From a virus (taxonomy: Duplodnaviria; Heunggongvirae; Uroviricota; Caudoviricetes), in the IMG/VR virus record IMGVR_UViG_2917393062_000002, positions 1 through 42,580 of that record: a stretch of DNA of 42,580 nucleotides. One strand, written 5' to 3'. Each line of letters opens with the position of its first letter. The first letter of the stretch is position 1. The notes beneath the pieces were generated by a model. The model was given only the letters and a program-made list of their open reading frames with translations. It had not been told where the DNA came from and ran no database searches. Below are positions 14,100 through 42,580 of this stretch, one piece after another. The position numbers and the translations under genes are program-made.

Positions 14100-14111
14100 G
14101 GAGTTCAGCAA

Positions 14112-14315
14112 ATGAATACCAATGAAGATATTTTATTTACTAAAGACGTAATGAAAATTTTGCGCTATGGGGCAATGAGCGCATTCATTAATTTCTGGAA
14201 AGATGAAAGCAATGGTTTTCCTCAACCGTTCAGAATTGGGCGGCGGCATACCTGGCACCGTAGAGATGTAGAGGCATGGTTAGATAAACAACGAGAACAG
14301 GCCAATCCCCACTAA
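14112..14315 (+). CDS. AlpA-like small DNA-binding protein (excisionase/regulator candidate)
   Basis: 67 aa; AlpA-like pattern (FPQPFRIGRRHTWHRRDVEAWL); immediately downstream of int. Confidence 0.5.
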   Translation: MNTNEDILFTKDVMKILRYGAMSAFINFWKDESNGFPQPFRIGRRHTWHRRDVEAWLDKQREQANPH

Positions 14316-14374
14316 TAATATCTTTCATACCCCGCACACAATGCGGGGTTTTTTGTATGTGAGGTAAAAAAACG

Positions 14375-14956: not shown

Positions 14957-15049
14957 CAAAACAAAGGCGACCGGGGGCGGTCGCCAATGGGAAAACACTA
15001 AACATAAGCACGGGGATGATAGCCGCTATCAGGCTGGTGGGCAATGCAA

Positions 15050-15238
15050 TCAGTCTTGTTCAGTTCGTTGCCATACCTGCAATGAGCGCGTTTCCCTGTA
15101 CTCTTTAAGGAATTGCTCAAGGGCAAAAGCACATGGCGCGAATCTTTCTGATTCATGCTCTATCTTTCTGCGCCGTCTTTTCCGTGCCGGTGATAATGTT
15201 TTGGTCAATTCTTTATCGGTCATTGTGTTGTCCTGCAT
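15050..15238 (-). CDS. Hypothetical basic protein, possibly co-transcribed with the RHH-like gene
   Basis: 62-aa minus-strand ORF downstream of the RHH-like gene; weak RBS. Confidence 0.25.
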   Translation of the reverse strand: MQDNTMTDKELTKTLSPARKRRRRKIEHESERFAPCAFALEQFLKEYRETRSLQVWQRTEQD

Positions 15239-15280
15239 AGCAATGCGCCGTAATACCTTACACCACGGCGCTGGTGATGG

Positions 15281-15460
15281 TTATTCCTGCTCTTTGGCCT
15301 TGCGACGCTGGCGGTATTCAACTTCTCGCTTTAATGCTGCTGTTACAAACTGCCCTGTACTTTCACCAGGCATTTTTACCGCCTCAACATTGTTCATAAC
15401 TTCATGCGGAACCCTTGCCGCAACTGTTTGTGATTTTGCGTTTACTGCTTTTGTCGCCAT
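15281..15460 (-). CDS. Small ribbon-helix-helix-like DNA-binding protein (candidate island repressor), 59 aa
   Basis: Minus-strand ATG at 15460 preceded by AAGGGG; MATKAVNAKSQTVAARVPHEVMNNVEAVKMPGESTGQFVTAALKREVEYRQRRKAKEQE (beta-strand then two helices); divergent from operator repeats; below ORF-track cut-off. Confidence 0.4.
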   Translation of the reverse strand: MATKAVNAKSQTVAARVPHEVMNNVEAVKMPGESTGQFVTAALKREVEYRQRRKAKEQE

Positions 15461-15510
15461 GTTGTGTACCCCTTACAAAAAACAAATGCAGTATGCAGGA
15501 AAAAAAATAA

Positions 15511-15562
15511 GTGTTCAACACTTGACGTGTTTAACACCAGGGCTTAAATTGGTGTTCAACAC
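15511..15562 (+). promoter_or_regulatory. Three palindromic operator-like sites GTGTT(C/T)AACAC overlapping a candidate rightward promoter
   Basis: GTGTTCAACAC at 15511 and 15552, GTGTTTAACAC at 15527; TTGACG at 15522 and TTAAAT about 17 bp downstream; between divergent RHH gene and rightward operon. Confidence 0.5.
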
Positions 15563-15658
15563 CTTGTTGATGCAAGGTGCAGAAACGACGAAACCCGGCA
15601 GTGCGCTAACACTAACCGGGCTTCTAACCACCAACGATAGAAAGCGTATCGAGGTAGC

Positions 15659-15866
15659 TATGTTAAATCATACCACACACCCGCAAGGGCGGGACTCGCA
15701 CAACCTGAATAAATACATCTGGCGTTTTATCGCCCTGAGCACGGCACAACCGCGCGTGATTACCATTGAGGCCACCAGCGAACAGGAAGCACGCCAGCAA
15801 TCTCCTGATGGCTGTGTGATGGTATTCGCCGCCCGTATTCGCCAGGGGGTGCACCATGTGCAATAA
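15659..15866 (+). CDS. Hypothetical protein (first gene of rightward island operon)
   Basis: ATG after GAGG; 68 aa C-terminal part of a 317-aa track ORF whose upstream part looks non-coding. Confidence 0.35.
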
Positions 15867-16086
15867 AAACACGCCGGACGCAGCAGGCGAAGCATTGAAA
15901 GTACTGATACATGCGCTTGTGGATATAAATTGCATGGTAGAGATCATGGAGAAGAAATCACAGTCGGAGTACGACAAAAGAAAATTTAAAACAATAAAAA
16001 TAATTACCAAAAACTCACTGACAAAAGCTACAGACATCCTCAATGAGGACACTAAAAGAATCAGGGGGAAACTGTGTGATGCATAA
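15856..16086 (+). CDS. Hypothetical protein
   Basis: 76-aa ORF overlapping upstream stop; AGGGGG upstream. Confidence 0.35.
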   Translation: MCNKNTPDAAGEALKVLIHALVDINCMVEIMEKKSQSEYDKRKFKTIKIITKNSLTKATDILNEDTKRIRGKLCDA

Positions 16087-16306
16087 AATACCTTTTGATG
16101 TTCTTATTCATTCTGAAAACGCATTAATCCGCGCAAAGGAAATGGAGGCATTATTACTTAAGTTAATGGAAGTGCCGGAAAATGGCGATGAATCATATCC
16201 CATGATGTTTTCTGCCGTGCACACATTATTAACGCCAGTAATTAACGAATTAAATACGGTGATGGCAATTCACGAGAATAATAAAACGCATCACACCGGA
16301 GAATAA
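16079..16306 (+). CDS. Hypothetical protein (start 16079, or 16043 per ORF track)
   Basis: In-frame ATG at 16079 preceded by GGGGAAA; overlaps upstream stop. Confidence 0.35.
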   Translation: MHKIPFDVLIHSENALIRAKEMEALLLKLMEVPENGDESYPMMFSAVHTLLTPVINELNTVMAIHENNKTHHTGE

Positions 16307-16311
16307 AAACC

Positions 16312-16611
16312 ATGAAACAGAAAAATTCTGGCTTTACTGCCAGCGGCCTCTCTCGGCCTGAAATCCGCCCCGGCGATATTTTCAAAGATAAATACGGCGG
16401 CACTGTAACGATTAAAAGCGTGGCGGGACGGTGTGTTACTTACCGCCGTGATGGGTACGGCTATGACTGCGTGATGCCTGTTTATCAGTTCCGGCGTGAT
16501 TTTTCTCTGGTACAGAACGCAACACGCGGTAAGCCCACCAGCAGGGAAAAAGCACGGGAAAATATTAAGAAAATAAAAAGCATGCTCAGCGCATCCAGAG
16601 GTAAAAAATGA
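16312..16611 (+). CDS. Hypothetical basic protein
   Basis: 99 aa; GGAG upstream; stop overlaps primase start. Confidence 0.4.
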   Translation: MKQKNSGFTASGLSRPEIRPGDIFKDKYGGTVTIKSVAGRCVTYRRDGYGYDCVMPVYQFRRDFSLVQNATRGKPTSREKARENIKKIKSMLSASRGKK

Positions 16612-18356
16612 AACTGGCACCGAACGTAAAAAAACAGCCTCGCGGAATAAAAAACAAAGACACAGAGGTAATTATTTTCGCGGGTAGTGATGCCTGGTCG
16701 CATGCGCAACAGTGGCAGGAGAAGGACGGTCCCGCATCCGGCGATAATGTGCCGCCTGTGTGGCTTGGGCCAAATCAGCTTGCCGAACTTGATGCGCTGA
16801 AAATTGTTCCGGATGGAAAAAAACGCGTAAGGCTGTACCAGGCCGGAGAACTGGATTTAGTGGAGACCAAAAAGATTGGTCAGAAGCTGGCGGCGGCAGA
16901 TATTCAGGATGCGAATTTTTACCCTGAAGGAATGCACGGTCAGAAGTGTGAAAACTGGCGGCGCTATTTGAATGCTGAGCGTGAAAATATTGCCGCAGGG
17001 CTTACCATGCCGGAGCAGAAAAATACGCAACTGGCACAGATGGCAGACAGTGAGCGCGCACAGATGCTTGCTGGTCGGTTTGATGGCGTATGTGTGCATC
17101 CGGAAAGTGAAATCGTTCACGTCTGGCGCGGCGGGGTATGGTGTCCGGTCAGCACAATGGAACTGAGTCGCGAAATGGTGGCGATTTATTCAGAACATAA
17201 GGCCACTTTCAGCAAGCGCGTAATCAGTAACGCCGTTGAAGCGTTAAAAGTTATTGCCGAACCAATGGGCGAGCCGTCCGGTGATTTGCTGCCGTTCGCC
17301 AATGGTGCGCTTGACCTGAAAACGGGGGAATTTTCCCCGCACTCGCCGGAGAACTGGATCACCACGCACAACGGTATTGAATACACGCCGCCAGTACCAG
17401 GGGAGAATATCCGCGACAACGCGCCAAACTTTCATAAATGGCTTGATCACGCTGCCGGAAAAGATCCGGGCAAGATGATGCGTATATGCGCCGCGCTATA
17501 CATGATTATGGCGAACCGGTACGACTGGCAGATGTTTATTGAGGCCACCGGAGACGGCGGGAGCGGCAAGAGCACTTTCACGCACATAGCCAGCCTTCTG
17601 GCAGGGAAACAGAACACAGTAAGCGCTGAGATGACATCGCTTGATGATGCTGGTGGGCGTGCGCAGGTTGTCGGGAGTCGGCTTATTGTCCTGGCAGACC
17701 AGCCGAAATATACAGGCGAAGGCACGGGCATCAAGAAAATCACGGGCGGCGACCCCGTGGAAATTAACCCGAAATATGAAAAGCGTTTCACAGCGGTAAT
17801 CAGGGCGGTTGTGCTGGCAACCAATAATAACCCGATGATATTCACCGAACGGGCCGGAGGCGTGGCACGTCGTCGCGTGATTTTCCGTTTCGACAATATC
17901 GTCAACGAGGCCGAAAAAGACAGGGAACTACCGGAAAAGATTGCGGCTGAAATCCCCGTCATTATCCGCCGATTACTGGCGAACTTTGCAGACCCTGAAA
18001 AGGCGCGGGCTTTACTACTGGAACAGCGTGACGGTGATGAAGCACTGGCGATAAAGCAGCAAACGGATCCGGTTATTGAGTTTTGCCAGTTCCTGAATTT
18101 TCTGGAGGAAGCACGCGGCCTGATGATGGGCGGCGGTGGCGATTCCGTGAAGTACACGACCAGAAACAGCCTTTACCGCGTCTATCTGGCGTTTATGGCA
18201 TACGCAGGCAGAACCAAACCACTAAACGTAAATGACTTTGGCAAGGCCATGAAGCCAGCCGCAAAAGCTTACGGACATGAATATATTACGCGAAAAATTA
18301 ATGGGGTGACGCAGACTAACGCAATAACAACCGACGATTGCGACGCGTTTTTATAA
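16608..18356 (+). CDS. Primase/helicase-type replication protein (P4 alpha / D5-like NTPase domain)
   Basis: 582 aa; Walker A GDGGSGKST, Walker B-like LIVLAD; immediately followed by an iteron array. Confidence 0.75.
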   Translation: MKLAPNVKKQPRGIKNKDTEVIIFAGSDAWSHAQQWQEKDGPASGDNVPPVWLGPNQLAELDALKIVPDGKKRVRLYQAGELDLVETKKIGQKLAAADIQDANFYPEGMHGQKCENWRRYLNAERENIAAGLTMPEQKNTQLAQMADSERAQMLAGRFDGVCVHPESEIVHVWRGGVWCPVSTMELSREMVAIYSEHKATFSKRVISNAVEALKVIAEPMGEPSGDLLPFANGALDLKTGEFSPHSPENWITTHNGIEYTPPVPGENIRDNAPNFHKWLDHAAGKDPGKMMRICAALYMIMANRYDWQMFIEATGDGGSGKSTFTHIASLLAGKQNTVSAEMTSLDDAGGRAQVVGSRLIVLADQPKYTGEGTGIKKITGGDPVEINPKYEKRFTAVIRAVVLATNNNPMIFTERAGGVARRRVIFRFDNIVNEAEKDRELPEKIAAEIPVIIRRLLANFADPEKARALLLEQRDGDEALAIKQQTDPVIEFCQFLNFLEEARGLMMGGGGDSVKYTTRNSLYRVYLAFMAYAGRTKPLNVNDFGKAMKPAAKAYGHEYITRKINGVTQTNAITTDDCDAFL

Positions 18357-18370
18357 TTTTTGGCAATTGC

Positions 18371-18590
18371 TGTCTACCTTGTCTACCTGATTACATAAAA
18401 GTTGTTTTAATTCAGTGTATTAATTTAGGTAGACAGCTTTTTTTTACTGTCTACAAGCTATCTACACTGTCTACCTGTTTTTGTAGCCAGCCGGAGGGAT
18501 GAGTAGACATCAGGTAGATAGTGGTTTTTTACTGTCTACATCCATTAAACCCGCGTCATTACTGGCCTGAGCATCTATCAGGTAGACAGA
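18371..18590 (+). repeat. Iteron array / candidate island replication origin
   Basis: At least 10 copies of TGTCTAC(C/A) or its complement GGTAGACA in both orientations, interspersed with A/T tracts, directly downstream of the primase/helicase gene. Confidence 0.75.
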
Positions 18591-18645
18591 GTAGACAAGG
18601 TGGGGGTAGGCCTAAAACTTTTTAAACGAGGGGGTAAAAATAAAA

Positions 18646-18903
18646 ATGCACACATCAGAAAAATTTAACAATCAGAAGAAATCACATAACCGCGCCATTG
18701 ACCTTACAGAGCACTGGCTGAGGGTGGCGATAAAAATCATCGACCGCAACGCGGGAGAAGGATACGCGAAAGCGCATCCCGAACTGATAAGCGCATTCAT
18801 GAACACAGCGGCGGCAAACTTTGCCACGCTGACAGAACGGGAGATTGCGGAAGCGGAACAGGTGACAACTATCAACGTTAAAACCGGAGAACAGACAGCA
18901 TGA
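18646..18903 (+). CDS. Hypothetical protein
   Basis: 85 aa; GAGGGGG upstream; stop overlaps SSB start. Confidence 0.4.
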   Translation: MHTSEKFNNQKKSHNRAIDLTEHWLRVAIKIIDRNAGEGYAKAHPELISAFMNTAAANFATLTEREIAEAEQVTTINVKTGEQTA

Positions 18904-19322
18904 CAGCACAGATAGCGGCTTACGGGCGGCTGGTGGCTGACCCGCAGTTAAAGACCACCAGCAAGGGAACACAAATGGCGATGGCGAGTATGGCTGTTCC
19001 CCTGCCGTGCAGCCAGGCCGATGACGGAACGGCGACAATGTGGTTATCCGTCCTGGCGTTTTGCAGACAGGCCGACGCACTGGCAAAACACCGCAAAGGC
19101 GAACTGGTGAGCGTGGCGGGTAACATGCAGGTAAGCCAGTGGACAGGCCAGAACGGCGAAACGCGGCAGGGCTGGCAGGTTATCGCAGACAGCGTAATCA
19201 GTGCGCGAACGGCGCGACCGGGCGGCAAAAAAGGCCAGCAGGGCCAGGCTACTGACGCACTGAACAGGGCAAAACAACAGGCGGGAAATGATGATCCGTA
19301 CGGGGATAACATACCGTTTTAA
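18900..19322 (+). CDS. ssb: Single-stranded DNA-binding protein (SSB-like)
   Basis: 140 aa; OB-fold-like core (LSVLAFCRQADALAKHRKGELVSVAGNMQVSQWTGQNGETRQGWQVIADSV), Gly/Gln linker and acidic tail ending DNIPF like SSB DDDIPF. Confidence 0.7.
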   Translation: MTAQIAAYGRLVADPQLKTTSKGTQMAMASMAVPLPCSQADDGTATMWLSVLAFCRQADALAKHRKGELVSVAGNMQVSQWTGQNGETRQGWQVIADSVISARTARPGGKKGQQGQATDALNRAKQQAGNDDPYGDNIPF

Positions 19323-19338
19323 GCAACGAGTGACAGAA

Positions 19339-19362
19339 GCCGGGATTTTTCCCGGTTTTTTT
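19339..19362 (+). terminator. Rho-independent terminator
   Basis: CCGGG-atttt-CCCGG + TTTTTTT after ssb. Confidence 0.65.
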
Positions 19363-19364
19363 AT

Positions 19365-19450
19365 GGGTCCTTCCTGAAAAATGGAACACCGAGGGGATGC
19401 GGACGCGCAGAAAACGGCTGGTTTTTGCATTTTCATGGTGGCGGCAGCAT
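19365..19450 (+). repeat. Copy B of the conserved element
   Basis: TTTTTTTATGGGTCCTTCCTGAAAAATGGAACACCGAGGGGATGCGGACGCGCAGAAAA...GCAGCAT; identical to copy C over about 55 bp including spacing from the upstream terminator. Confidence 0.6.
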
Positions 19451-19730
19451 GTGTGATAATTAATTGATAATTAAAAATTATTTCTGTTTTCACCTGTACA
19501 ATCTTTTTTCTCCCCCTGTCATCAGACCAGTTTGCAATTAATTGAAATATATAAACAAATTTGTTTTTCACCTGCCAAATGGAGCTGCCTATGTCAAATG
19601 TGATTGGGATTGGTGATGCTTATCACTGGCACACAAAAATGAATATTGCATATTTTGCAATGCAATTGATCATCATTGCATTTTGATCAACACTGCACAC
19701 TTCAAATATCAGTCTGAAACGAGGTGTTAC

Positions 19731-19934
19731 GTGAACGAAAAGAAAGCTGTATCGGTTTATCTCGACAATGAAACGGCGCTTGCCCTGTACCGTTTGCGCG
19801 AAGATATTCGCAAGAAAAATGCAGAAACGGGAATGGATCTTCCCACGCCAACAGTCGGCTGGCTTGCCCGTTCATTGTTGCGTCAAAGCCTGGGAATTAA
19901 GGCAGACAAAAAAGATTTGCCTCATGAGGGGTAA
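19731..19934 (+). CDS. Hypothetical small protein
   Basis: GTG 7 nt after GAGG; 67 aa; immediately upstream of island capsid gene. Confidence 0.35.
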   Translation: MNEKKAVSVYLDNETALALYRLREDIRKKNAETGMDLPTPTVGWLARSLLRQSLGIKADKKDLPHEG

Positions 19935-19936
19935 GG

Positions 19937-21781
19937 TTGATGGAAATTTCATTGTATGAGCCAATCGAAGGCGTAACCGCAAGACAGTTCCGCGATTCAC
20001 TTATGGCTGCAAAAGGCCCGGTTACGGTTGCCATAAACAGCGGTGGCGGAAATGTAACTGACGGCATGGCGATGTTTAACGCCCTGAGAACGTACAAAGG
20101 CCACACGGTCGCAAGAATCGACGGTATCGCCGCATCAATGGCTACCATTGTTGCGCTCGGTGCCCGGCGTGTCGTGATGGCTGATAACGGCTGGTGGATG
20201 ATCCATAACCCGTGGGGCGTTTTTGTTGGTGAATCGGAAGATCTCCGCAAAAAAGCCGACATGATGGAAAAAATCGGCAAGGCAATGCTTGATACCTACG
20301 TTGCCAAAACCGGATTACCGGAATCAGAAATCAAAGCCATGATGGATGCTGAAACATGGCTGACGGCTGAGGAAGCGAAAGAAAAAGGATTTATTGATGA
20401 AATTTATCCGGCAGAGGGACAGGCATTAGCCATGGCCCCTGGTTGCGGATCACTGGTAGAGAAATTTACCAGAACGCCGGAAAGCATCATCGCATCGATG
20501 AAGAAAGGCGACACGGGATCAGCAAACGAAAGAGAGAAGCGAAAAAAAGAAGCCGACGTTTTGTTTGCTTACTGGAAGAATTCTTCGTATGAGTGGTTGC
20601 CAGGAATTGTTGAAGAATTTATCAGCGGTTCCATCACTGCCGAAGAAGCACGTAAAAAACACTTAGAAAAACTGGCGGAAGAGACAACGCCGTGCGCAGG
20701 ACCAGGAGCAATGAACATGTATGCAGGTAACGGTAATATTGTTGGGGATTCAGTAAAAGCGGCGCTTATGGCACGCAGTGGACTGGCGGATGTGGAAAAA
20801 GATAACCGCTATAACGGTTATTCATTGCGGGAACTGGCGCGCGCTTCTCTGGTGGATCGTGGGGTAAGCGGCATTCCAGGTAATCCGCTGGGCATGGTTG
20901 GAATGGCGTTTACTCACAGCAGTAGTGATTTTGGCGGCATTCTTGCGGACGTGGCGCATAAATCATTACTGAAAGGCTGGGAAGATTCGCCGGAGACGTT
21001 CCACGCCTGGACGAAAAAAGGCACTCTGACAGATTTTAAGGTTGCCCATCGTGTTGGTATGGATGGTTTTAAATCTCTGCGAAAAGTTTTGCCAGGCAGC
21101 GAATATAAATACGCGTCCACGTCCGATCGCAGCGAGCCAATTGCACTGGCAACTTATGGCGAACTGTTCAGCATAGATCGCCAGGCAATCATCAATGACG
21201 ACATGAGCGCACTGACTTCAATCCCCCAGCAAATGGGGGCAGCAGCAAGCCGCACAGTCGGGGATCTGGTTTATGCCGTTCTCGTGGCCAATCAGAAGAT
21301 GGGCGATAAAAACCCGCTCTTTGATGCGAAACACAGCAATCTGATTAACAGCGAACTTGATATTCCAGGCCTGAGTGCAGCCCGTAAAGCTATGCGTATG
21401 CAAAAAAATAATGCTGGTGCTGTACTGAATATTCCGCCTCGTTTCCTGTTAGTTCCGGTAGAACTGGAAGACAGAGCAACCCAGCTTATTCGTTCTACGT
21501 CGCTACCAGACGCGCAGAACAGCGGTGTGTTTAACCCATACAATGATGCACTGACAGTAATCACAGAGGCGCGACTTGATGCCGACAGCGTGAAATCCTG
21601 GTATCTGCTTGCGGGTCAGGGAAGTGATACAATTGAAGTCGCTTATCTCGATGGTATTGATACCCCGTACCTGGAACAGCAGCAGGGCTTTACGGTTGAC
21701 GGCGTAACTTTCAAAGTGCGCATTGATGCCGGAGTTTCTCCTCTGGACTGGCGCGGGATGGTTAAGTCATCAGGTGGTTAA
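19937..21781 (+). CDS. Island prohead protease (ClpP-like)-linker-major capsid protein fusion
   Basis: 614 aa; N-terminal ClpP/S14-like domain; C-terminal ~330 aa about 70% identical by eye to the helper capsid domain (GNGNIVGDS...IEVAYLDGIDTPYLEQQQGFTVDG). Confidence 0.8.
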   Translation: MMEISLYEPIEGVTARQFRDSLMAAKGPVTVAINSGGGNVTDGMAMFNALRTYKGHTVARIDGIAASMATIVALGARRVVMADNGWWMIHNPWGVFVGESEDLRKKADMMEKIGKAMLDTYVAKTGLPESEIKAMMDAETWLTAEEAKEKGFIDEIYPAEGQALAMAPGCGSLVEKFTRTPESIIASMKKGDTGSANEREKRKKEADVLFAYWKNSSYEWLPGIVEEFISGSITAEEARKKHLEKLAEETTPCAGPGAMNMYAGNGNIVGDSVKAALMARSGLADVEKDNRYNGYSLRELARASLVDRGVSGIPGNPLGMVGMAFTHSSSDFGGILADVAHKSLLKGWEDSPETFHAWTKKGTLTDFKVAHRVGMDGFKSLRKVLPGSEYKYASTSDRSEPIALATYGELFSIDRQAIINDDMSALTSIPQQMGAAASRTVGDLVYAVLVANQKMGDKNPLFDAKHSNLINSELDIPGLSAARKAMRMQKNNAGAVLNIPPRFLLVPVELEDRATQLIRSTSLPDAQNSGVFNPYNDALTVITEARLDADSVKSWYLLAGQGSDTIEVAYLDGIDTPYLEQQQGFTVDGVTFKVRIDAGVSPLDWRGMVKSSGG

Positions 21782-21807
21782 CAGATAATCAGGCATGTTA
21801 TGTTTTT

Positions 21808-21833
21808 TTGCGGCCTTCGGGCCGCTTTTTTTA
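21808..21833 (+). terminator. Rho-independent terminator
   Basis: GCGGCC-ttcg-GGCCGC flanked by T-runs. Confidence 0.65.
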
Positions 21834-21834
21834 T

Positions 21835-21920
21835 GGGTCCTTCCTGAAAAATGGAACACCGAGGGGATGCGGACGCGCATAAATCGAGAGATTTTTGATA
21901 TTTTATGCGTGCAGCAGCAT
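21835..21920 (+). repeat. Copy C of the conserved element
   Basis: Same core as A and B; about 110-160 bp upstream of island terS. Confidence 0.6.
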
Positions 21921-21993
21921 AAGTTTAATGCTTTGATTTTTAACATTATTGATTTGTTTTGTTGAAAAAGCGACCGTGCAGTGAGGTGGTAAA

Positions 21994-22476
21994 GTGGAAC
22001 TGAGCAAAATGCAGGTTAATGTCTCACAACTGGCAGACCTGGTAGGCATGAATCGAAATCTTGTTTCACGCCGTTTGCGTGAGCTGGAGCTTGTTGGCGG
22101 GAATGGTGAGAATCTTAAACTGTATGAACTCGGTCCGGCACTTCAGGCACTACTGACCCCATCAATGAAAGAAAATGGTGAAATGTCACCACAGGATCGG
22201 AAAGCCTGGTATCAGTCAGAAAATGAAAGGCTGAAATTTGAAGCAGCTTCACGTGAATTACTCCCTGTCGAAGAGGTGGCCCGTGAATATTCATCTCTGG
22301 CTAAAGCCGTAGTCATGGTGCTGGAAACGTTGCCGGATATTCTTGAGCGCGATTGCGCTCTCCAGCCTTCCGCAGTCATACGAGTGCAACGCATTATTGA
22401 TGATCTACGTGATGAAATGGCGAGAAAAATTGCAGAAAGCGATTCAGATAATGGCTGGCCTGCATGTACAAGATGA
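21994..22476 (+). CDS. terS: Island terminase small subunit paralogue
   Basis: 160 aa; C-terminal half almost identical to helper TerS (VLETLPDILERDCAL.PSAV.RVQ.IIDDLRDE), N-terminal HTH region divergent. Confidence 0.65.
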   Translation: MELSKMQVNVSQLADLVGMNRNLVSRRLRELELVGGNGENLKLYELGPALQALLTPSMKENGEMSPQDRKAWYQSENERLKFEAASRELLPVEEVAREYSSLAKAVVMVLETLPDILERDCALQPSAVIRVQRIIDDLRDEMARKIAESDSDNGWPACTR

Positions 22477-22692
22477 GTGAACTGCTGGAAAGAAACGGCT
22501 ACGGGAAAGAACCATTATCGTGATGGTATTGCGATATCAAAATTCATTTATAGCGACATATTTAGCTTTTAATTAGTATTGCCGCCTTTTTTTCTTTTTT
22601 ATCACTTAAACAGGTACTAAATCTTGGACTATGTAGATGGGGCCATAGCAAAATAGTATTTTATAATCATTTAGTTACCTTTTATTTACTTC

Positions 22693-22702
22693 TTCCTGGA
22701 TG
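22693..22702 (+). other. Right junction (attR-like) with core CTGGATG
   Basis: AT-rich island DNA ...TTCTTCCTGGATG|GAAGGGCCGG resumes terL coding sequence. Confidence 0.5.
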
Positions 22703-23827
22703 GAAGGGCCGGCTGCTGCGTATCAGACCTGGGCGCAACTGGTTTACAAACTACTGACTGCTGAGCAGGAATATGAAGCCACAGGCAGTGAGGAAACACT
22801 GAAGGCGGTGATTAACACCGACTGGGGATTACCTTATTTGCCTCGTTCCGCAATGGAGCTGCGTAGTGCGGATGTTCTGATGCAGCGGGCCGAGGACTAC
22901 GGTAAGCGCCTGGTACCGCCGAAAGTACGTTTTCTTATTGCGGCTGTGGACGTGCAGGGCGGGAAGAACCGACGGTTTGTGGTGCAGATTATTGGCTATG
23001 GCGAGGACGGCGAACGCTGGCTGGTGGACCGTTATAACATCCGACAGTCATTGCGCTGCGATGAAAATGGCGAAGCATTACCTGTGCATCCCGGGGCTTA
23101 TCCTGAAGACTGGCAGTTGCTGGTCACCGATGTACTGGAGAAAACGTATCCGCTCCAGTCCGATCCGGCCCGCAGAATGCCTGTACTGGCAATGGCGGTG
23201 GACAGTGGTGGTGAGGACGGGGTGACGGATAACGCCTATAAATTCTGGCGAAAATGTCGTCAGGATGGACTGGGGCGACGGGTTTTTCTGGTAAAGGGAG
23301 ACAGCACGAAACGCCAGAAAATTATCACCATCACACACCCGGATAATACCGGGCGAAGCGATCGTCGTGCTGATGCTCAGGGAAAGGTGCCGGTATATCT
23401 CCTGCAGACAGACCTGCTGAAAGATCAACTAAGCAATAACCTGCAACGTGAAATGCCCGGACCGGGCTACATTCATTTTCCTGACTGGCTCGGGGAGTGG
23501 TTTTATGAAGAGTTGACCTATGAGGAACGCGGTGCTGACGGGAAATGGCGCAAGCCGGGAAAAGGGAATAACGAAGCGTTTGACCTTTTTTGCTATGCCC
23601 ATGCTGTCGCCATTCTGCGTGGCTATGAAAAAATCCGTGACTGGAGCAATCCTCCCCAGTGGGCAAGGGGGCAGGATGCTGATGCGGGGGCTTCAGCAGA
23701 CAGACGTTCTTCCGGCACAGTGGACAAGAAAAACGTTGCCGGAAGAGATGAGCGGCAAAAAGCAGCGTCGCCGGAAGCGTTATCCGGAAACTGGTTATCA
23801 CTACCCCGAAACGGAGGATGGTTGTGA
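22700..23827 (+). CDS. terL: Terminase large subunit, C-terminal (nuclease) part
   Basis: 375 aa GpA-like C-terminal domain; in frame with 11704..12696 once 12697..22702 is removed. Confidence 0.8.
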   Translation: MEGPAAAYQTWAQLVYKLLTAEQEYEATGSEETLKAVINTDWGLPYLPRSAMELRSADVLMQRAEDYGKRLVPPKVRFLIAAVDVQGGKNRRFVVQIIGYGEDGERWLVDRYNIRQSLRCDENGEALPVHPGAYPEDWQLLVTDVLEKTYPLQSDPARRMPVLAMAVDSGGEDGVTDNAYKFWRKCRQDGLGRRVFLVKGDSTKRQKIITITHPDNTGRSDRRADAQGKVPVYLLQTDLLKDQLSNNLQREMPGPGYIHFPDWLGEWFYEELTYEERGADGKWRKPGKGNNEAFDLFCYAHAVAILRGYEKIRDWSNPPQWARGQDADAGASADRRSSGTVDKKNVAGRDERQKAASPEALSGNWLSLPRNGGWL

Positions 23828-32319: not shown

Positions 32320-32619
32320 ATGAATATTCCGGGTGAAACCCGCACCATCACACTGTACACACCTGTCACTCTGGGGGGCGGGGCTGTGCTGGAACACATC
32401 ACCATGCGCGAACCGCTGGTGCGCGATCGCATTGCCTTCACCAAAGACCGGGGAACAGAGGAGGAAAAAGAGGCGCGTATGATTGCGCAGCTTTGTAATC
32501 TGAGTGAGCAGGATATCTGGCTGCTGACCGCAGCGGATTATGCCCAGCTGACGGATGCCTTTAATGTTTTTATGCTGCCACCCGGGAAGCGACCGAAACC
32601 GAAATCTTCAGAGGGTTAA
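32320..32619 (+). CDS. Tail assembly chaperone (P2 gpE-like)
   Basis: 99-aa ORF between tube and tape measure genes; AGGAG upstream. Confidence 0.5.
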   Translation: MNIPGETRTITLYTPVTLGGGAVLEHITMREPLVRDRIAFTKDRGTEEEKEARMIAQLCNLSEQDIWLLTAADYAQLTDAFNVFMLPPGKRPKPKSSEG

Positions 32620-36586: not shown

Positions 36587-37478
36587 TGTGATCAATCTTT
36601 CGGATTTGCCCGTACCGGATGCCATCGTGGTGCCTGATGCGGCGGTGATTTTCGGGGCCTGGCTGGCACGTCTGCGCGAACTGGATCCTGAATTTGATGC
36701 CCTGGTGGAATCCGACCCGGCTTACAAGCAGGGCGAAGTGACAGCCTTTCAGCTTACCCTGGCTTTTCAGCGGGTGAATGATGCTGTGCGGGCCGTTTTT
36801 CTGGCAAGTGCGCAGAATGCCGATCTCGATCAGATTGGCGCGGCGTTCAATGTCGGACGTATGGTGATTGTTCCGGCAAATCCGGATGCCGTGCCTCCGA
36901 CGGATGCGGTTATGGAAGAGGACGACGCTTTTCGCGAACGCATTCAGTTGTCCTGGTCGCAACTGAATACTGCAGGCGCCCGCAATGCTTATCGTTTTCA
37001 TGCCCGTTCTGCTGATGAAGATGTGCTGGATGCTGATGCCTATGGTCCGGAAGAGCACGGGCGTGCGGGGGAGGTGGATGTCTACGTATTGTCCCGTGAA
37101 GGAAATGGCACTGCCAGCGAGGCGTTGCTGGATGCGGTCAGTGCGCGGCTGAATGCTGATGAAATTCGTCCGCTGACGGATTTTGTGACGGTGAAAAGCG
37201 CCATTATTAATGACTATACCGTGACGGCTGAGCTGGAAATACCGGACGGTCCGGATGCCGGTGAAGTGCTGGAAAATGCGAAAAACACGCTGATGTCTTA
37301 TACCCGGCTGGCAAACCGGATTAATGGCATGGTGCCGCTGTCCGCTATTTACGCAGCACTGCAACAGACCGGTGTGGCGCGGGTTATTCTGTCCAGTCCC
37401 CGGGCTGATATTGAACCGGCAACCGGTACGGCTCCCCGTTGTGCCGCCGTTAATGTGACGCGCAGAGAGGTGTGGTGA
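36570..37478 (+). CDS. Baseplate protein J-like
   Basis: 302 aa; follows W in P2-like order; overlapping start/stop coupling. Confidence 0.65.
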   Translation: MAESYDVINLSDLPVPDAIVVPDAAVIFGAWLARLRELDPEFDALVESDPAYKQGEVTAFQLTLAFQRVNDAVRAVFLASAQNADLDQIGAAFNVGRMVIVPANPDAVPPTDAVMEEDDAFRERIQLSWSQLNTAGARNAYRFHARSADEDVLDADAYGPEEHGRAGEVDVYVLSREGNGTASEALLDAVSARLNADEIRPLTDFVTVKSAIINDYTVTAELEIPDGPDAGEVLENAKNTLMSYTRLANRINGMVPLSAIYAALQQTGVARVILSSPRADIEPATGTAPRCAAVNVTRREVW

Positions 37479-38032
37479 TGACAGAGACGTTTCGCTCACT
37501 TCTGCCGCCTTCCGCTGTCAGGCCGGAGCGGTCACAGGAGCAGGCCACAACAGAAAGTATCCTGACGCTTGATGCGGATATGGTCAGAAAGGTGAAAAAT
37601 CCGGATACCTGTCCGTTGCATCTGTTGCCGTGGCTGGCATGGGAGTTTGCTGTGGATTTCTGGCAGGACGACTGGAGCGAAGAGCAGAAGCGGCAGATTT
37701 TACGTGATGCGGCATATGTACATCAGCACCGGGGGACGGCGGGGGCGGTGCTGCGGGCGCTTGGTGCGGTTGGTGTTCCGGCAGCAATCAAAGAGTGGTG
37801 GCAGGATTCACCGCGCAAAAAACCGTACACTTTTCGTGTGGAGCTGTTTTTGCGGGAAGGGGCTGACAGTGTGCTTTACAGTCGGGTCAGGACGCTGGTC
37901 ATTAAGGCCAAGAATTTACGCAGCGGCCTGAGCACCATTGACGTAAATACGGATATCGGAAAGGACAGCCAGTTTTATGTTGGTGGCGCGGTGACCGCGC
38001 ATATTGATGTGGTGATTGAGGCGGGAGAATAA
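37472..38032 (+). CDS. Tail protein I (P2 gpI-like)
   Basis: 186 aa between J and fibre gene. Confidence 0.6.
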   Translation: MVMTETFRSLLPPSAVRPERSQEQATTESILTLDADMVRKVKNPDTCPLHLLPWLAWEFAVDFWQDDWSEEQKRQILRDAAYVHQHRGTAGAVLRALGAVGVPAAIKEWWQDSPRKKPYTFRVELFLREGADSVLYSRVRTLVIKAKNLRSGLSTIDVNTDIGKDSQFYVGGAVTAHIDVVIEAGE

Positions 38033-38033: not shown

Positions 38034-39289
38034 GTGACCACGAAACATTGCAGTATTCTGACAAACAAGGGAAAGGCGCTGGAGGCAGCGTCTGCGGCGG
38101 GTGGTGCGCCGGTCGTATTAGACAAGTTTGTGGTGGGAGACGGAAACGGAAATGCTGTCACGCCAGAGGCAGGGCAGACGGCTCTGGTCAGGGAAGTTTA
38201 TCGCGGCACCATATCACGTCTGGCGGTCTCGCCTGAGCAGGAAAACCAGTTTATTGCGTATCTTGTGCTGCCGGAGGGCGTGGGGGGATTTACGGTCAGG
38301 GAAGCGGGGCTGCTGACCACCGATGGTGAGCTTTATGCCGTCGGAAGTTGTGCTGCCATTGAGAAACCGAAAAATGGTGTGACAGCCACACTGCAGTTCC
38401 GGCTGGCAGTGGCTGAAAGCGCGCAGGTTACACTGAAGGTGGCAACCGGAGATGGTCTGTTTCTGCGACAGAACAGGAATCTTTCGGATGTGGAAGACAG
38501 GGATGAGGCTGTTGAAAACCTCGGATTAAAACCCACGGTGGACAAGGCAAAAAATGCCGTTCAACGTTCCGGCGATAAAATGTCCGGAGAGCTGAAAATT
38601 GGCACGGTTAATGCGCTCAGGATATTTGATGCAGCATTCGGCCTTATTTTTCGTCGTTCGGAAGAGCACCTGCATCTCATACCTACCGGGAAAATCAGGG
38701 GGAAGAAGGCGATATTGGCCCACTGCGACCGTTCAGCATTAACCTGCGGACGGGTGAAGTTTCCATGTCTCACCCGGTATCTGTTGGCGGCGGTTCGAAA
38801 GTAAACGGTGCATTAGGTATCGGCGTTCAGAACGCACTGGGCGGAAGCTCAATAGCTATCGGCGATAACGACACCGGCCTTAAATATAACAGCGACGGCG
38901 TTCTGGATGTTTATGCAAACAACCAGGCAGTATTTCGTTTTCTTAATAATGAAAATTACAGCCTGAAGTCGTTAAAAGTCATCGGGAACAGTGCTGCAAC
39001 AGGGAAATTGCAGGCTGGCAACGCAGAGCTTGCCACAGACGGTAACGTGTATGGCAGCGCATGGGGCGGCTGGTTATCGGCTTATCTGCAAAATAAAGTG
39101 GGTGTGCAGGACATGCGTCTTGGTGGTTATCAACAGATGGGCAGTACAGGCTCAAACCTGGCCCCTTCTGGTTATGTCAGTGTGGGTGGCTATTGCTACG
39201 GAGACTGGGATAACTCTGCCGACGGGTGGTTTATCCGCCCCCTTCAGAAACTGATTAACGGAACCTGGTATAACGTCGCGAGTATGTAA
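38034..39289 (+). pseudogene. Tail fibre (P2 gpH-like) reading frame broken by a 1-nt frameshift at a G5 tract (38698..38702)
   Basis: Frame 0 (38034..38804) carries the H-like N-terminus; frame -1 is open from 38630 and carries the conserved C-terminus (ALGGSSIAIGDNDTGLKYNSDGVLDVYANNQ...LINGTWYNVASM); one extra G would fuse them as ...KIRGEEGDIGPLRPF... Confidence 0.6.
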
Positions 39290-39291
39290 TT

Positions 39292-39837
39292 ATGCTGCAT
39301 TTAAAAAATATCCGGACAGGGAATCCTAAAACGCCCGAACAATATGAGTTAACTAAAAGATACGGTGTTGAGTGGTTGTATACAGAATCCGGTGAAAACT
39401 GGTATGAAATCCAGAAAAATTTTTCACCTGACACATTAAAAGTTGAATATCTGGATACAGGGAAAGTTACCTGGGTTGGAAAAGATGCCGCGTCAATTAA
39501 TCCCAGGAACAGGAGTGTAATTGAAATTGCAGATAACACAGCTAACCGACAAATTGACATGTCGGGTTACTGGTTTTACCGGGATGGTCAATTCATATTT
39601 GACTACGGTAAAAAGGCAGAAGATGAGCGGGTGAGAAAGCTCAAGGATATAAAGCGGTTAACCGCAGACCGGGAAACAGACCTGCTGCTGGGGTTAATCA
39701 GTGACGAAGACAGGGAGAAGCTGAAAGCGTACCGCATTTATGCGAAATCGCTGCAGGCGCTGGATTTCAGCACTATTACCGATAAAACCTCATACAGAGC
39801 CATTGAATGGCCCGTCTCTCCGGAAGTCTCTTCCTGA
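39292..39837 (+). CDS. Tail fibre assembly protein (gpG/Tfa-like)
   Basis: 181 aa immediately after the fibre gene (TAATTATG junction). Confidence 0.6.
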   Translation: MLHLKNIRTGNPKTPEQYELTKRYGVEWLYTESGENWYEIQKNFSPDTLKVEYLDTGKVTWVGKDAASINPRNRSVIEIADNTANRQIDMSGYWFYRDGQFIFDYGKKAEDERVRKLKDIKRLTADRETDLLLGLISDEDREKLKAYRIYAKSLQALDFSTITDKTSYRAIEWPVSPEVSS

Positions 39838-39860
39838 TTTAATTAATCGCGAGAAAAACT

Positions 39861-41483
39861 ATGTCTGTAGTGATATCAGGTGCGCTGATTGATGGCGCAG
39901 GCATCCCCATGTCCGGATGCCACATAATTCTGAAATCCCGGGTAAACACCTCAGAAGTGGTGATGCGCACAGTTGCTGACGTGGTGACCGGAAATAATGG
40001 GGAATATTCGTTCGAGGCACAGCTCGGGAAATACTGTGTTTATCTCAGGCAATGGATTAAAGATGATTATGAATATTGTGTTGGAGATATTGCTGTATAC
40101 GATGACTCAAAGCCCGGCACGCTGAATGATTTTCTGACCGCTCTTGATGAAGGCGACCTCAAACCCGATGTGGTGAAACGCTTTGAGGAAATGATGGCGC
40201 AGGCGCAGCAGAGCGCGGAAGCGGCAGCGGAAAGCGAGCAGCAGGCAGGGCAACACGCAGCTGATGCGCAGAAGATTAAGGATGATTGCCAGACGCTGGC
40301 GGATAACGTACAGCAGAATGCAGAAGTCGTAGCAGCCAGCAAACAGCAAGTTGAACAGCTGGCCTCAGAAGTTGAGCTGAACGCCGGGCAGGTGCAGCAG
40401 GGCGTGCAGAATGTTACTGATGCGGTAAAAAAGGCGCAGCAGGCAGCAAAGAATTCTGCTGACAGTGCCACTGACTCAAAAAACAGTGCTGACAATGCGG
40501 CACTGAGCGAACAGAACGCACAAAAACACGCGCAGAAAGCAGAACAACACGAGCAGCAGACTCAACAATATGCGCAGGATGCAGCGACAGCCGCAGAATC
40601 CGCAGAGAACGCCAAAGGCGAAATTGACGAAATTCTGGAGGGTGGGTATCTCAAGATAAAAAACAACTTTCAGGAAATTGTTGATGCTGGCCCGTCAGCA
40701 CTGGCTCAGGCCCAATGGAATTTACAGATTTCCGGGGTAAAAAATAAACAGGTAATTACCACCCCTTATACATGGCCAGCCAGAACCGAATATGAACAAA
40801 GGGTGCATCTGCCACTCGCCGGGGCTTACGGATTTGGCTACACATTTGAAGACCAAAGCCAGGGGCGAATAAATTTTCATGAGGGCTATACGGCGTCGTG
40901 GTGGTCACAGTGGGCGAAACCTGGTCGTTATTACGTCAGCGCCAGTGATAAAGAATACCTCGCACCTGAAGGAGACAAGTGGGGGATTGTTGATTTGCTG
41001 TGGCTTAATGGCAGCGGATATAACGATGCTTCGAAGGTTCTGAAAATACTGGCTTTTTACGATAATGACGGATGCTTGCACATCGGCAGGCGTATTGCTC
41101 AGAGCAACTCGACAATAAGCTGGCGCAAGCTGGCATCGCTTACTGATGTCCGGGCCATGCTGTATTCGTTTAACAGTAATTATAACAATGAGTGGCGCGA
41201 CCCGGCGCAGCCAGGAAGTTTAATTCTGGCGTCATACCAGGGAACCGCTGACGGCGACACAAATATTAAAGTATCCCGTGGTCAGACTTACCCCGGCTCA
41301 CGACTTGCACCTGTGGCGATAGAGTGCCCGTTCACCCCGTCTGGTACGTATGCGGCAACACCGCGATTCTATATTACCGGCTGCAAGAGCAAATCACTCC
41401 CCGGAACCTATGTTTCACTGTCTGGAGCACCCACAACATACAGCGACCAGGCTTTTGTTGCGCTATTCATGAGGATTGCATGA
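39861..41483 (+). CDS. Side tail fibre protein (lambda Stf-like), coiled-coil rich
   Basis: 540 aa; conserved Stf-like N-terminus (MSVVISGALIDGAGIPMSGC...), long Q/A-rich coiled-coil, globular C-terminus. Confidence 0.6.
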   Translation: MSVVISGALIDGAGIPMSGCHIILKSRVNTSEVVMRTVADVVTGNNGEYSFEAQLGKYCVYLRQWIKDDYEYCVGDIAVYDDSKPGTLNDFLTALDEGDLKPDVVKRFEEMMAQAQQSAEAAAESEQQAGQHAADAQKIKDDCQTLADNVQQNAEVVAASKQQVEQLASEVELNAGQVQQGVQNVTDAVKKAQQAAKNSADSATDSKNSADNAALSEQNAQKHAQKAEQHEQQTQQYAQDAATAAESAENAKGEIDEILEGGYLKIKNNFQEIVDAGPSALAQAQWNLQISGVKNKQVITTPYTWPARTEYEQRVHLPLAGAYGFGYTFEDQSQGRINFHEGYTASWWSQWAKPGRYYVSASDKEYLAPEGDKWGIVDLLWLNGSGYNDASKVLKILAFYDNDGCLHIGRRIAQSNSTISWRKLASLTDVRAMLYSFNSNYNNEWRDPAQPGSLILASYQGTADGDTNIKVSRGQTYPGSRLAPVAIECPFTPSGTYAATPRFYITGCKSKSLPGTYVSLSGAPTTYSDQAFVALFMRIA

Positions 41484-42088
41484 TGCAAGTGAAAGAAATT
41501 ACGAATCCCCGCTATACCGAATCCGGCGCAATTGACTGCGACGTTTTGTTTGAAGGGATGGATACCCCCATCCCCTACACAGCCACGGCAGAAGATACAG
41601 CAGAGACAGGCCAGCACATCTGGCAGGAACTACAAAGTGGCAAATGGGGCGAAATTGCCCCGTTCAGCGTCACGCCGGAAATGCTGGAAGCAGCAAAAGC
41701 CGCTAAACGCCAGGAAATCGAGGCATGGCGCACAGAACAGGAGGCGCAGCCGTTCACATGCGAATGGAACGGTCGTACCTGGAATGCGGGGCCGGACTCG
41801 ATGGCGCGTATTGCACCCGTGGTAATGGCTGCAAAATCTGATGCGGCACGGGACGTGATGACGTGGGGTGACGCCGATAATCAACAGGTGCAACTGTCGA
41901 TGTCTGAGCTGGAAGAACTGGCGGCAGCAATGGCGCAGGCACAGGCCGATCGCAATGACGAGATTTATCAACGCCAGCGTGAGATGAAGGAAGAACTGAA
42001 TAATCTGGAGGATTTACACTCAATCAGAGAGATGACAATCAACGGTCAGTCAGAGCAGGAAAACCAGCAGGCTTCTGCTAAACAGTAA
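41480..42088 (+). CDS. Tail fibre assembly protein (Tfa-like)
   Basis: ATG overlapping Stf stop; about 202 aa; C-terminal DEIYQRQREMKEELNNLEDL motif. Confidence 0.6.
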   Translation: MMQVKEITNPRYTESGAIDCDVLFEGMDTPIPYTATAEDTAETGQHIWQELQSGKWGEIAPFSVTPEMLEAAKAAKRQEIEAWRTEQEAQPFTCEWNGRTWNAGPDSMARIAPVVMAAKSDAARDVMTWGDADNQQVQLSMSELEELAAAMAQAQADRNDEIYQRQREMKEELNNLEDLHSIREMTINGQSEQENQQASAKQ

Positions 42089-42469
42089 AAAAAAGCCCCG
42101 TCTTCAGCAAGTGATAACGAGGCCTCAGGCATGGCTAACAGGTCGCTACACAAGACGGGGTAACATAATAATTCTGAACAAACATACTGACAAACGGGAT
42201 ATTTCAGCTAAAGGCGCAACAAAAACCGGGCGTTGGGTTGATGCTGCGTCTGACAGGTGAATTTACCGATAGCGCGATAAAATAAATCTCCTGTCACCAT
42301 TTATTGTAGAAATGTTTATCAGTCATGCTTATGAGATAAATACACAAAACGATGTGAAAATTTGACCTAAAACAAGGTCGGGCTGAAAAGAGCCTTGTGC
42401 GGTTTTGCGAACACAAAAATGGATTCACGCTGTATGCAAGGACACGCAGTGGCTGGCTATTGCACAGTT

Positions 42470-42580
42470 CTGTTGAACGATGAAATTTATCAGTGCCAAC
42501 GCGAGATGAAAGATGAACTGAACAACCTGGAGGATTTGCGCTTAATCAGAAAACTGGTCATTAGCTCAGAAAAACTTTGA
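42470..42580 (+). pseudogene. Remnant of a second tfa 3' end
   Basis: ...DEIYQCQREMKDELNNLEDLRLIRKL... about 75% nt identity to the 3' end of 41480..42088, with no matching N-terminal part. Confidence 0.35.

What the first reader, a model, noticed from the sequence alone, without database searches (positions are those of the whole stretch)
38620..38770. Tail fibre gene is interrupted by a single-base frameshift at a G5 homopolymer
The gpH-like fibre N-terminus (frame 0, from 38034) and conserved C-terminus (frame -1, open from 38630, ending 39289) overlap across GGGGG at 38698..38702. One extra G, or a -1 ribosomal slip after AGG, would give a continuous protein ...KIRGEEGDIGPLRPFSINLRTGEV... 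This could be a homopolymer sequencing error, a true inactivating mutation in a decaying prophage, or a slipped-strand phase-variable fibre.
Basis: seen in the sequence. Interest (0 to 1): 0.5.

Follow-up and report, generated by a model that had tools for sequence, protein, structure and literature searches.

The report
Tail fibre gene broken by deletion

Summary
The gpH-like fibre gene (GTG 38034 to stop 39289) changes frame once. Homology in frame 0 ends at Thr (ACC, 38685-38687). Homology in the -1 frame starts at Glu (GAA, 38690-38692). Only GG is left of the codon between them. Four intact genes from independent assemblies are identical to the window around the break, except that they read ACCCGGGAAAATCAGGGGGAAG where the window reads ACC-GGGAAAATCAGGGGGAAG. 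So the lesion is C3->C2 at 38686-38687. The G5 run at 38698-38702 is the normal in-frame state (CAG GGG GAA). Of 100 family copies surveyed, 97 are in frame. The overlap has no slippery heptamer in the incoming frame, no stable downstream RNA structure and no inversion architecture. The window comes from NCBI assembly GCA_004745115.1, a non-coli Escherichia. An independent Logan assembly of run SRR6148342 gives the same C2 allele, and the allele is seen nowhere else. All other late genes are intact apart from terL. The closest precedent is lambda PaPa's stf frameshift. Verdict: an ordinary, private pseudogenising deletion, of low interest. Side observation: terL is interrupted by a ~10-kb helper-embedded PICI-type satellite, which is a described class.

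The parts
38034..38687 (+). 5' part of the gpH-like tail-fibre gene, frame 0, codons 1-218 (GTG start ... HLHLIPT); holds the PF12571 tail-collar fibre N-terminal domain
   Evidence: PF12571, E 9e-37, residues 1-136; alignment with intact homologues up to Thr218; tblastn 1-226 at 88% identity.
38686..38687 (+). The lesion: a CC run where the four closest intact relatives have CCC (ACC CGG GAA -> ACC GG GAA). This is a one-base deletion that shifts the rest of the gene into the -1 frame.
   Evidence: L101, L102, L103 and L104 all read CCTACCCGGGAAAATCAGGGGGAAGAAGG, against CCTACC-GGGAAAATCAGGGGGAAGAAGG in the window; spacer of 41 nt in the window, 42 nt in relatives.
38688..38804 (+). Out-of-frame tail of the frame-0 ORF (GKIRGKKAILAHCDRSALTCGRVKFPCLTRYLLAAVRK, 38 codons, then the stop at 38802-38804); not genuine fibre sequence
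   Evidence: It does not correspond to the sequence of the intact homologues at these positions.
38698..38702 (+). It is the wild-type length, read CAG GGG GAA (Q G E) in the -1 frame, and is not the lesion.
   Evidence: identical G5 in 4 intact genes; 20 other in-frame family members with CAGGGGGAA.
38690..39289 (+). 3' part of the same fibre gene in the -1 frame: ENQGEEGDIGPLRPFSINLRTGEV...NGTWYNVASM, 199 codons plus stop. It covers the distal shaft and the presumed receptor-binding tip. ORF callers see only ATG 38765..39289 (174 aa).
   Evidence: (C-terminus nearly identical to E. coli PEC422 fibre).
39292..39837 (+). Tail fibre assembly chaperone (Tfa), intact; partner of the broken fibre's C-terminal domain
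   Evidence: PF02413 Caudo_TAP, E 1.6e-19; the exact protein is present in GCA_004745115.1 and in the Logan contig.
37472..38032 (+). Baseplate wedge protein (P2 gpI-like), intact, immediately upstream of the fibre gene
   Evidence: 96.7% aa identity over the full length. (PF09684 Tail_P2_I).
39861..42088 (+). Second, intact fibre set: a phage_tail_N-type fibre (39861-41483) and a DUF4376 protein (41480-42088). It could keep the phage adsorption-competent.
   Evidence: PF08400, E 8e-57; PF14301, E 3.5e-18; same gene order in phiP27 (L54-L57).

Best explanation
The gpH/phiP27-L54-type tail-fibre gene of this prophage carries a genuine one-base deletion: one C lost from the run in ACCCGGG, at window 38686-38687.

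Shown: translation from GTG 38034 yields the authentic first 218 residues (baseplate-attachment domain and proximal shaft). It then continues for 38 nonsense residues to a stop at 38802-38804. The remaining 199 codons, which encode the distal shaft and the tip, lie stranded in the -1 frame.

Inferred: the gene is a pseudogene and this fibre is not assembled. The prophage, if still active, would depend on its second intact fibre set (39861-42088). The deletion is recent and private to this isolate. The G5 run is not involved.
For: 1. Position of the lesion. Four intact genes from independent samples (GCA_029516115.1, GCA_036601765.1, Logan SRR25477841, ENA ERZ24773434) match the window at every aligned base from 38600 to 38721 (about 88 nt 5' and 34 nt 3' of the break) apart from the one missing C. 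They have CCC where the window has CC, and they carry the same G5.
2. Their proteins read EEHLHLIPTRENQGEEGDIGPLRPFSINLRTGEVSMSH across the junction.
3. Family survey between invariant anchors: the spacer is 42 nt in 97 of 100 copies. It is 41 nt only in the window, its Logan twin and one noisy assembly.
4. The repaired 418-aa protein aligns over 100% of its length with single-gene homologues at up to 92% identity.
5. An independent assembler working from raw reads of SRR6148342 gives a 1399-bp contig that is 100% identical to the window, including the C2 allele.
6. The window is 100% identical over the 7289 bases compared to GCA_004745115.1 contig PDHZ01000026.1, whose NCBI gene list holds no protein between gpI and Tfa.
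7. There are no frameshift signals.
8. Precedent: lambda PaPa's stf frameshift, and the ease of obtaining stf frameshifts under selection (PMC12617516, PMC2762979).
Against: - The read pile-up was not seen. The Logan contig and the NCBI assembly very probably derive from the same isolate and read set, so a systematic read error is not formally excluded.
- The allele is documented in one isolate only. Neither the truncated product nor the repaired protein is found elsewhere among about 15 billion proteins.
- Every other late gene is intact. That fits a very recent mutation and a base-calling error equally well.
Confidence: 0.8

Rival explanations
1. Sequencing or consensus error: the real genome has CCC and an intact 418-aa fibre gene, and the C2 is an artefact of base calling or assembly.
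For: It is a single-base change in a short homopolymer. All other late genes are intact. The allele is seen in one isolate only. Another family member (L022) shows that noisy assemblies do create such frameshifts in this gene.
Against: Two different assemblies, NCBI GCA_004745115.1 and the Logan contig from SRR6148342 reads, agree base for base over 1399 nt. A 3-nt run is a poor substrate for homopolymer miscalls. Inference: the Logan contig breaks exactly at repeat boundaries, as expected for accurate short reads. Unlike L022, the window gene has exactly one frame change.
Confidence: 0.12
2. Programmed or adventitious -1 ribosomal frameshift at A GGG GGA (the G5 run, after rare AGG), giving a full-length fibre with ...GKIRGEEGD... 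in place of ...RENQGEEGD...
For: A P-site tRNA-Gly on GGG could re-pair perfectly one base back within G5. Both frames are open across 38630-38804. AGG is a rare codon in enterobacteria (general knowledge).
Against: The two-frame arrangement is not conserved: 97/100 family copies and 4/4 closest relatives are in frame with the same G5. No X XXY YYZ heptamer lies in frame 0; the only heptamer, GGGAAAA at 38688, is in the wrong phase. Downstream RNA is no more stable than shuffled sequence (z +0.47 and +1.08). Homology changes frame upstream of G5.
Confidence: 0.03
3. Slipped-strand phase variation: a homopolymer tract whose length toggles the fibre ON and OFF in the population.
For: The lesion is in a homopolymer context (CCCGGG / G5). 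One other family member (L022) has G5->G4 at the equivalent G run.
Against: The tracts are only 3 and 5 nt, well below the lengths of known contingency loci (general knowledge; typically 7 or more). G5 length is constant in 24 intact copies. L022 changes frame several times within the same gene, so its G4 is best read as sequencing noise. The C tract is CCC in all four close relatives.
Confidence: 0.02
4. Two genuinely separate genes, or a constant/variable junction of an invertible (Gin/Cin/Pin-type) fibre segment, rather than one broken gene.
For: A motif resembling Din-family crossover sites (GAAAACCTCGGATTAAAACC) lies at 38514-38533. Fibre genes of Mu, P1 and e14 are organised this way (general knowledge).
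Against: The motif occurs once in the window, even allowing 3 mismatches. No inverted repeats frame the region. No invertase ORF was noticed downstream in the ORF list; this was not specifically searched. The window is colinear with intact single genes apart from one base. Relatives are annotated as single CDSs.
Confidence: 0.01

Closest known systems
Lambda PaPa stf (orf401 / orf314) versus Ur-lambda
   Same: An accessory tail-fibre gene is split into two ORFs by a frameshift mutation, upstream of an intact tfa chaperone gene, in a phage that has another adsorption device. Frameshifts in stf arise readily (PMC12617516 and PMC2762979).
   Different: Stf is a side fibre of a siphovirus. Here the gene is the gpH/L54-type fibre of a contractile-tail prophage. 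Whether this phage remains viable without it is untested. The lambda lesion is fixed in a laboratory lineage, whereas this one is private to one natural isolate.
phiP27 L54 / P2 gpH-type tail-collar fibre proteins (PF12571) with a Caudo_TAP chaperone
   Same: The N-terminal PF12571 domain, the position after the gpJ-gpI baseplate genes and before tfa, the conserved central linker, and a mosaic C-terminus shared with other E. coli prophages.
   Different: Members are single continuous ORFs of about 330-450 aa. The window copy is frameshifted after codon 218.
Programmed -1 frameshift of tail assembly chaperones (lambda G/GT type)
   Same: Two overlapping frames in a tail-module gene that a -1 shift would join.
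   Different: G/GT frameshifts are conserved across homologues and use a slippery heptamer. Here the arrangement is unique to one isolate and has no slippery site in phase. The window has its own separate tail assembly gene at 32320-32619.
Helper-embedded PICIs (HE-PICI; PMC10111431), relevant only to the side observation in terL
   Same: int, a small ORF in the AlpA position, Bro-N, primase and captured late genes; about 10 kb; embedded in and co-oriented with a helper late gene; short att direct repeat.
   Different: Not part of the fibre finding. Membership of the HE-PICI integrase clade and the exact site type were not tested here.

Membership tests
Tail-collar fibre protein family (PF12571; P2 gpH / phiP27 L54 type) | N-terminal Phage_tail_fib domain | tested here: met
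   PF12571, E 9.1e-37, residues 1-136 of the frame-0 product.
Tail-collar fibre protein family (PF12571; P2 gpH / phiP27 L54 type) | Gene order: baseplate J, then gpI, then fibre, then Caudo_TAP chaperone | tested here: met
   The order is the same in E. coli relatives and phiP27.
Tail-collar fibre protein family (PF12571; P2 gpH / phiP27 L54 type) | One continuous ORF encoding both the N-terminal attachment part and the C-terminal tip | tested here: not met
   the frame changes after codon 218, so the window copy is a pseudogene of this family.
Programmed -1 ribosomal frameshift site | The two-frame arrangement is conserved among homologues | tested here: not met
   97/100 copies are in frame; 4/4 closest relatives are in frame.
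Programmed -1 ribosomal frameshift site | Slippery heptamer X XXY YYZ in the incoming frame within the overlap | tested here: not met
   the only heptamer (GGGAAAA at 38688) is in the wrong phase.
Programmed -1 ribosomal frameshift site | Stimulatory RNA structure downstream | tested here: not met
   MFE z-scores of +0.47 and +1.08 against shuffles. Pseudoknots were not modelled.
Phase-variable homopolymer (contingency locus) | Tract-length polymorphism among close relatives or within reads | tested here: not met
   G5 is constant in 24 intact copies, and CCC in all 4 close relatives. The only G4 copy (L022) lies in a gene with multiple frame errors. Within-sample read heterogeneity could not be tested.
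Invertible fibre segment (Gin/Cin/Pin type) | Inverted crossover sites flanking alternative fibre ends, plus an invertase | tested here: not met
   a single copy of the motif and no flanking inverted repeats; no invertase ORF was noticed downstream in the ORF list (not specifically searched).
Helper-embedded PICI (side observation, 12.7-22.7 kb) | PICI gene layout (int, alpA, Bro-N, pri, late genes), embedded in and co-oriented with a prophage late gene, with an att direct repeat | tested here: met
   The junction recurs in 87/5426 E. coli genomes. The layout matches the description in PMC10111431. The AlpA assignment rests on ORF position and size only.
Helper-embedded PICI (side observation, 12.7-22.7 kb) | Integrase belongs to the single HE-PICI integrase clade; the satellite excises and restores the late gene | not tested
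   No reference integrase sequences were compared. Excision needs induction experiments or read evidence.

The most novel reading that the evidence does not exclude
The deletion is genuine and not neutral. One reading is that loss of the gpH-type fibre was selected, as lambda stf frameshifts are under high-density growth, in a phage that keeps a second fibre set. Another is that rare -1 slippage on the nearby A GGG GGA run restores the frame often enough to give a few full-length fibres per burst. Either would be an unprogrammed route to host-range or adsorption-rate heterogeneity.
Probability: 0.05. Interest if true: 0.3.

Novelty: already known. Interest (0 to 1): 0.1.

Why it matters
It matters little beyond correct annotation. 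The locus should be recorded as a single frameshifted tail-fibre pseudogene, with the lesion at 38686-38687, rather than as two genes or a recoding site. If the prophage is ever induced, its virions are predicted to lack this fibre and to depend on the second fibre set, which would narrow or change host range. There is also a methodological lesson. When two frames overlap, the nearest conspicuous homopolymer need not be the lesion. Alignment to intact relatives moved it by about 12 nt and showed that the G5 run is wild-type.

Tried and rejected
1. G5 as the lesion. Rejected: intact relatives carry the same G5.
2. A first alignment with more distant E. coli genes left the ancestral codon ambiguous (CAG, AGT, AGG or TGG). 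This was resolved only after a protein search found near-identical intact alleles with CGG.
3. DNA pattern scans for window-type alleles found nothing: IMG/VR with GGGTGAAGTTTCCATGTCTCACCCGG and JGI metagenomes with an anchored variable-gap pattern.
4. L022 (G5->G4) was considered as independent evidence for a G-run hot spot. Rejected because that gene changes frame several times, which indicates a noisy assembly.
5. A second run (SRR5626392, L111) carries the same baseplate genes, but its contig ends 501 nt into the fibre gene, short of the lesion. It is uninformative.
6. Exact look-ups of the truncated (256 and 262 aa) and repaired (418 aa) proteins found nothing.
7. The programmed-frameshift, phase-variation and invertible-segment readings were tested and rejected.
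8. The split terL was first taken as a sign of prophage decay. Rejected after the insert proved to be a satellite of the described HE-PICI type.

Full report
**Observation.**
- GGGGG lies at 38698-38702.
- An ORF in frame 0 runs from GTG 38034 to a stop at 38802-38804 (256 codons).
- The -1 frame is open from 38630 to the stop at 39287-39289.
- The two frames therefore overlap over 175 nt.
- The frame-0 product carries the tail-collar fibre N-terminal domain PF12571 (E 9e-37).
- The gene sits after baseplate genes gpW, gpJ and gpI and before a Caudo_TAP chaperone.

**It is one gene with one frame change.** Megablast against 5426 complete E. coli genomes aligned query bases 1-909 to 910 subject bases, all annotated as single "phage tail protein" CDSs. 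tblastn of an intact E. coli orthologue hits the window as residues 1-226 in one frame and 219-407 in another (joint E 3e-163). A repaired 418-aa protein finds 3061 homologues at E<=1e-20. Nearly all of the 120 best listed cover 100% of the query, at up to 92% identity, as single proteins.

**Where the lesion is.**
- In frame 0, homology ends with ...HLHLIPT (ACC, 38685-38687).
- In the -1 frame, homology begins with ENQGEEGDIGPL (GAA, 38690-38692).
- Only GG (38688-38689) remains of the codon between them.
- Three database proteins (P0009, P0010, P0024) read EEHLHLIPTRENQGEEGDIGPLRPFSINLRTGEVSMSH. This is identical to the window on both sides, with Arg at the broken codon.
- Their DNA comes from four independent samples: GCA_029516115.1, GCA_036601765.1, Logan SRR25477841 and ENA ERZ24773434.
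- All four read ...CATCTCATACCTACCCGGGAAAATCAGGGGGAAGAAGGCGATATTGG.... The window reads ...CCTACC-GGGAAAATCAGGGGGAAGAAGG....
- The lesion is therefore loss of one C from a C3 run, at window 38686-38687.
- The G5 run is present in all four intact genes, read in frame as CAG GGG GAA. It is not the site.

**Is the arrangement conserved?** Two anchors invariant in the family (TTTTTCGTCGTTCGGAAGAG ... GGCGATATTGG) were scanned in GTDB representative genomes and IMG/VR. Three had 41 nt: the window, its Logan twin, and L022. Twenty in-frame copies carry the same CAGGGGGAA. L022 has G5->G4, but that gene changes frame several times, so I read it as sequencing noise rather than a biological hot spot.

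**Recoding, phase variation and inversion.**
- No X XXY YYZ heptamer lies in frame 0 in the overlap. GGGAAAA at 38688 is out of phase.
- The RNA downstream of the G run folds no better than shuffled sequence (z +0.47 and +1.08).
- The tracts involved are 3 and 5 nt, too short for known contingency loci (general knowledge).
- The motif GAAAACCTCGGATTAAAACC at 38514-38533 resembles Din-invertase crossover sites. It occurs once only, and no inverted repeats frame the region.

**Real mutation or error?**
- The 174-aa product of ATG 38765-39289 exists once in the 15-billion-protein collection, on a 1399-bp Logan contig from run SRR6148342. That contig is 100% identical to window 38510-39908, including the CC allele.
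- The window is identical over the 7289 bases compared to NCBI assembly GCA_004745115.1, contig PDHZ01000026.1. That record's gene list holds no protein between gpI and Tfa, which is consistent with a pseudogene call.
- Two assemblers therefore agree, but probably on one read set. I could not inspect reads.
- The truncated product and the repaired protein are found nowhere else, so the allele is private to this isolate.
- I put a genuine deletion at about 0.8, a read or consensus error at about 0.12, and everything else below 0.05.

**Context.**
- All other late genes from portal to gpI are intact at 95-100% aa identity to E. coli P393-F10.
- Tfa is intact, as is a second fibre set (phage_tail_N fibre 39861-41483 and DUF4376 protein 41480-42088), arranged as in phiP27 L54-L57.
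- So the prophage is not generally decaying.
- Predicted consequence (inference): a 218-residue authentic stub with a 38-residue nonsense tail and no distal fibre or tip, leaving adsorption to the second fibre set.
- The chromosomal flank (tRNA-Ser, hyaA) is at most 94.1% identical to any complete E. coli genome, so the host is a non-coli Escherichia.

**Comparison with what is known.** The closest precedent is lambda PaPa. Its stf gene is split (orf401 and orf314) by a frameshift relative to Ur-lambda, without loss of plaque formation. New stf frameshifts are readily selected: 15 of 19 mutants in one study (PMC12617516, PMC2762979). The window gene is a frameshifted member of the PF12571 fibre family. 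It fails every test for a programmed frameshift, a contingency locus or an invertible segment.

**Side observation.**
- terL is split. Residues 1-333 lie at 11704-12702 and residues 326-705 at 22685-23824.
- The ~10.0-kb insert is bounded by imperfect direct repeats: TTCTGGATGTAGGG at 12688-12701 and TTCCTGGATGGAAGGG at 22693-22708. Intact terL reads TTCTGGATGGAAGG.
- The insert encodes a tyrosine integrase, a 67-aa ORF in the AlpA position (no domain search run), Bro-N, DUF4222, a D5-type primase, SSB, its own ClpP-capsid fusion and a DUF1441 terS-like protein.
- The same terL-integrase junction occurs in 87 of 5426 complete E. coli genomes.
- The insert is thus a member of a known class and not a sign of decay.

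**Verdict.** It is an ordinary, private, single-base pseudogenising deletion in a tail-fibre gene. Novelty: already known kind. Interest: 0.1.

Noticed in passing
window 11704-23824 (insert about 12700-22700): The prophage terL gene is interrupted between its ATPase and nuclease domains by a ~10-kb co-oriented element. The element carries int, a 67-aa ORF in the AlpA position, Bro-N, DUF4222, a D5-type primase, SSB, its own ClpP-capsid fusion and a DUF1441 terS-like gene. It is bounded by imperfect direct repeats at 12688-12701 and 22693-22708. The same junction is present in 87/5426 complete E. coli genomes. It matches the described helper-embedded PICI class (PMC10111431).
   Followed up: partly
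window 19352-19450 and 21822-21920: A 99-nt direct repeat (85% identity) flanks the satellite's ClpP-capsid gene. Each copy starts with a T-rich, terminator-like stretch (CCGGTTTTTTTATGGG). Its function is unknown; it could be a duplicated regulatory or late-promoter region.
   Followed up: no
window 38034-39289 versus L100-L104: The fibre gene is mosaic. Bases 38034 to about 38900 are closest to the L101/L102 allele type (91-98% across the three segments compared). Bases 38901-39289 are closest to a different allele (L100/P0002, 382/389 identical) and to the C-terminus of a P2-like fibre in E. coli PEC422. The junction lies about 200 nt downstream of the deletion and is unrelated to it.
   Followed up: partly
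window 38514-38533: GAAAACCTCGGATTAAAACC resembles the crossover sites of Din-family (Gin/Cin/Pin) invertases (resemblance recalled from memory, not tested). It marks the start of a segment conserved across otherwise different fibre genes. The Logan contig L005 starts about 4 nt upstream of it and L111 ends at it, so it is a repeat or recombination boundary. It occurs once in the window, and no invertase was noticed.
   Followed up: partly
L022 (IMGVR_UViG_2681813161_000013) about 460-2060: This homologous fibre gene shows G5->G4 at the equivalent G run but also several further frame changes within the same gene. The assembly looks error-prone, so it is not evidence for a biological hot spot.
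   Followed up: partly
window 38684-38691: In intact relatives the lesion site is the 6-bp palindrome CCCGGG (ACCCGGGA). The deletion converts it to CCGGG. Whether the palindromic context favoured the deletion is unknown.
   Followed up: no
window 7373-7526: Two adjacent tRNA genes, tRNA-Thr (TGT) and tRNA-Gly (TCC), lie inside the early/regulatory half of the prophage.
   Followed up: no
window 42395-42580: An ORF running to the window end encodes a 60%-identical copy of the C-terminal 40 residues of the DUF4376 protein (41480-42088). It is probably a remnant of a second DUF4376 gene next to attR. About 200 nt past the window end, the source contig carries a tRNA-Ser gene followed by hyaA.
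   Followed up: no
L107 7420-8546 (chromosomal flank of the source contig): The tRNA-Ser-hyaA flank is at most 94.1% identical to any of 5426 complete E. coli genomes. The host of this prophage (GCA_004745115.1) therefore appears to be an Escherichia outside E. coli sensu stricto. The window starts about 50 nt from the contig end, so the prophage's left end may lie on another contig.
   Followed up: partly
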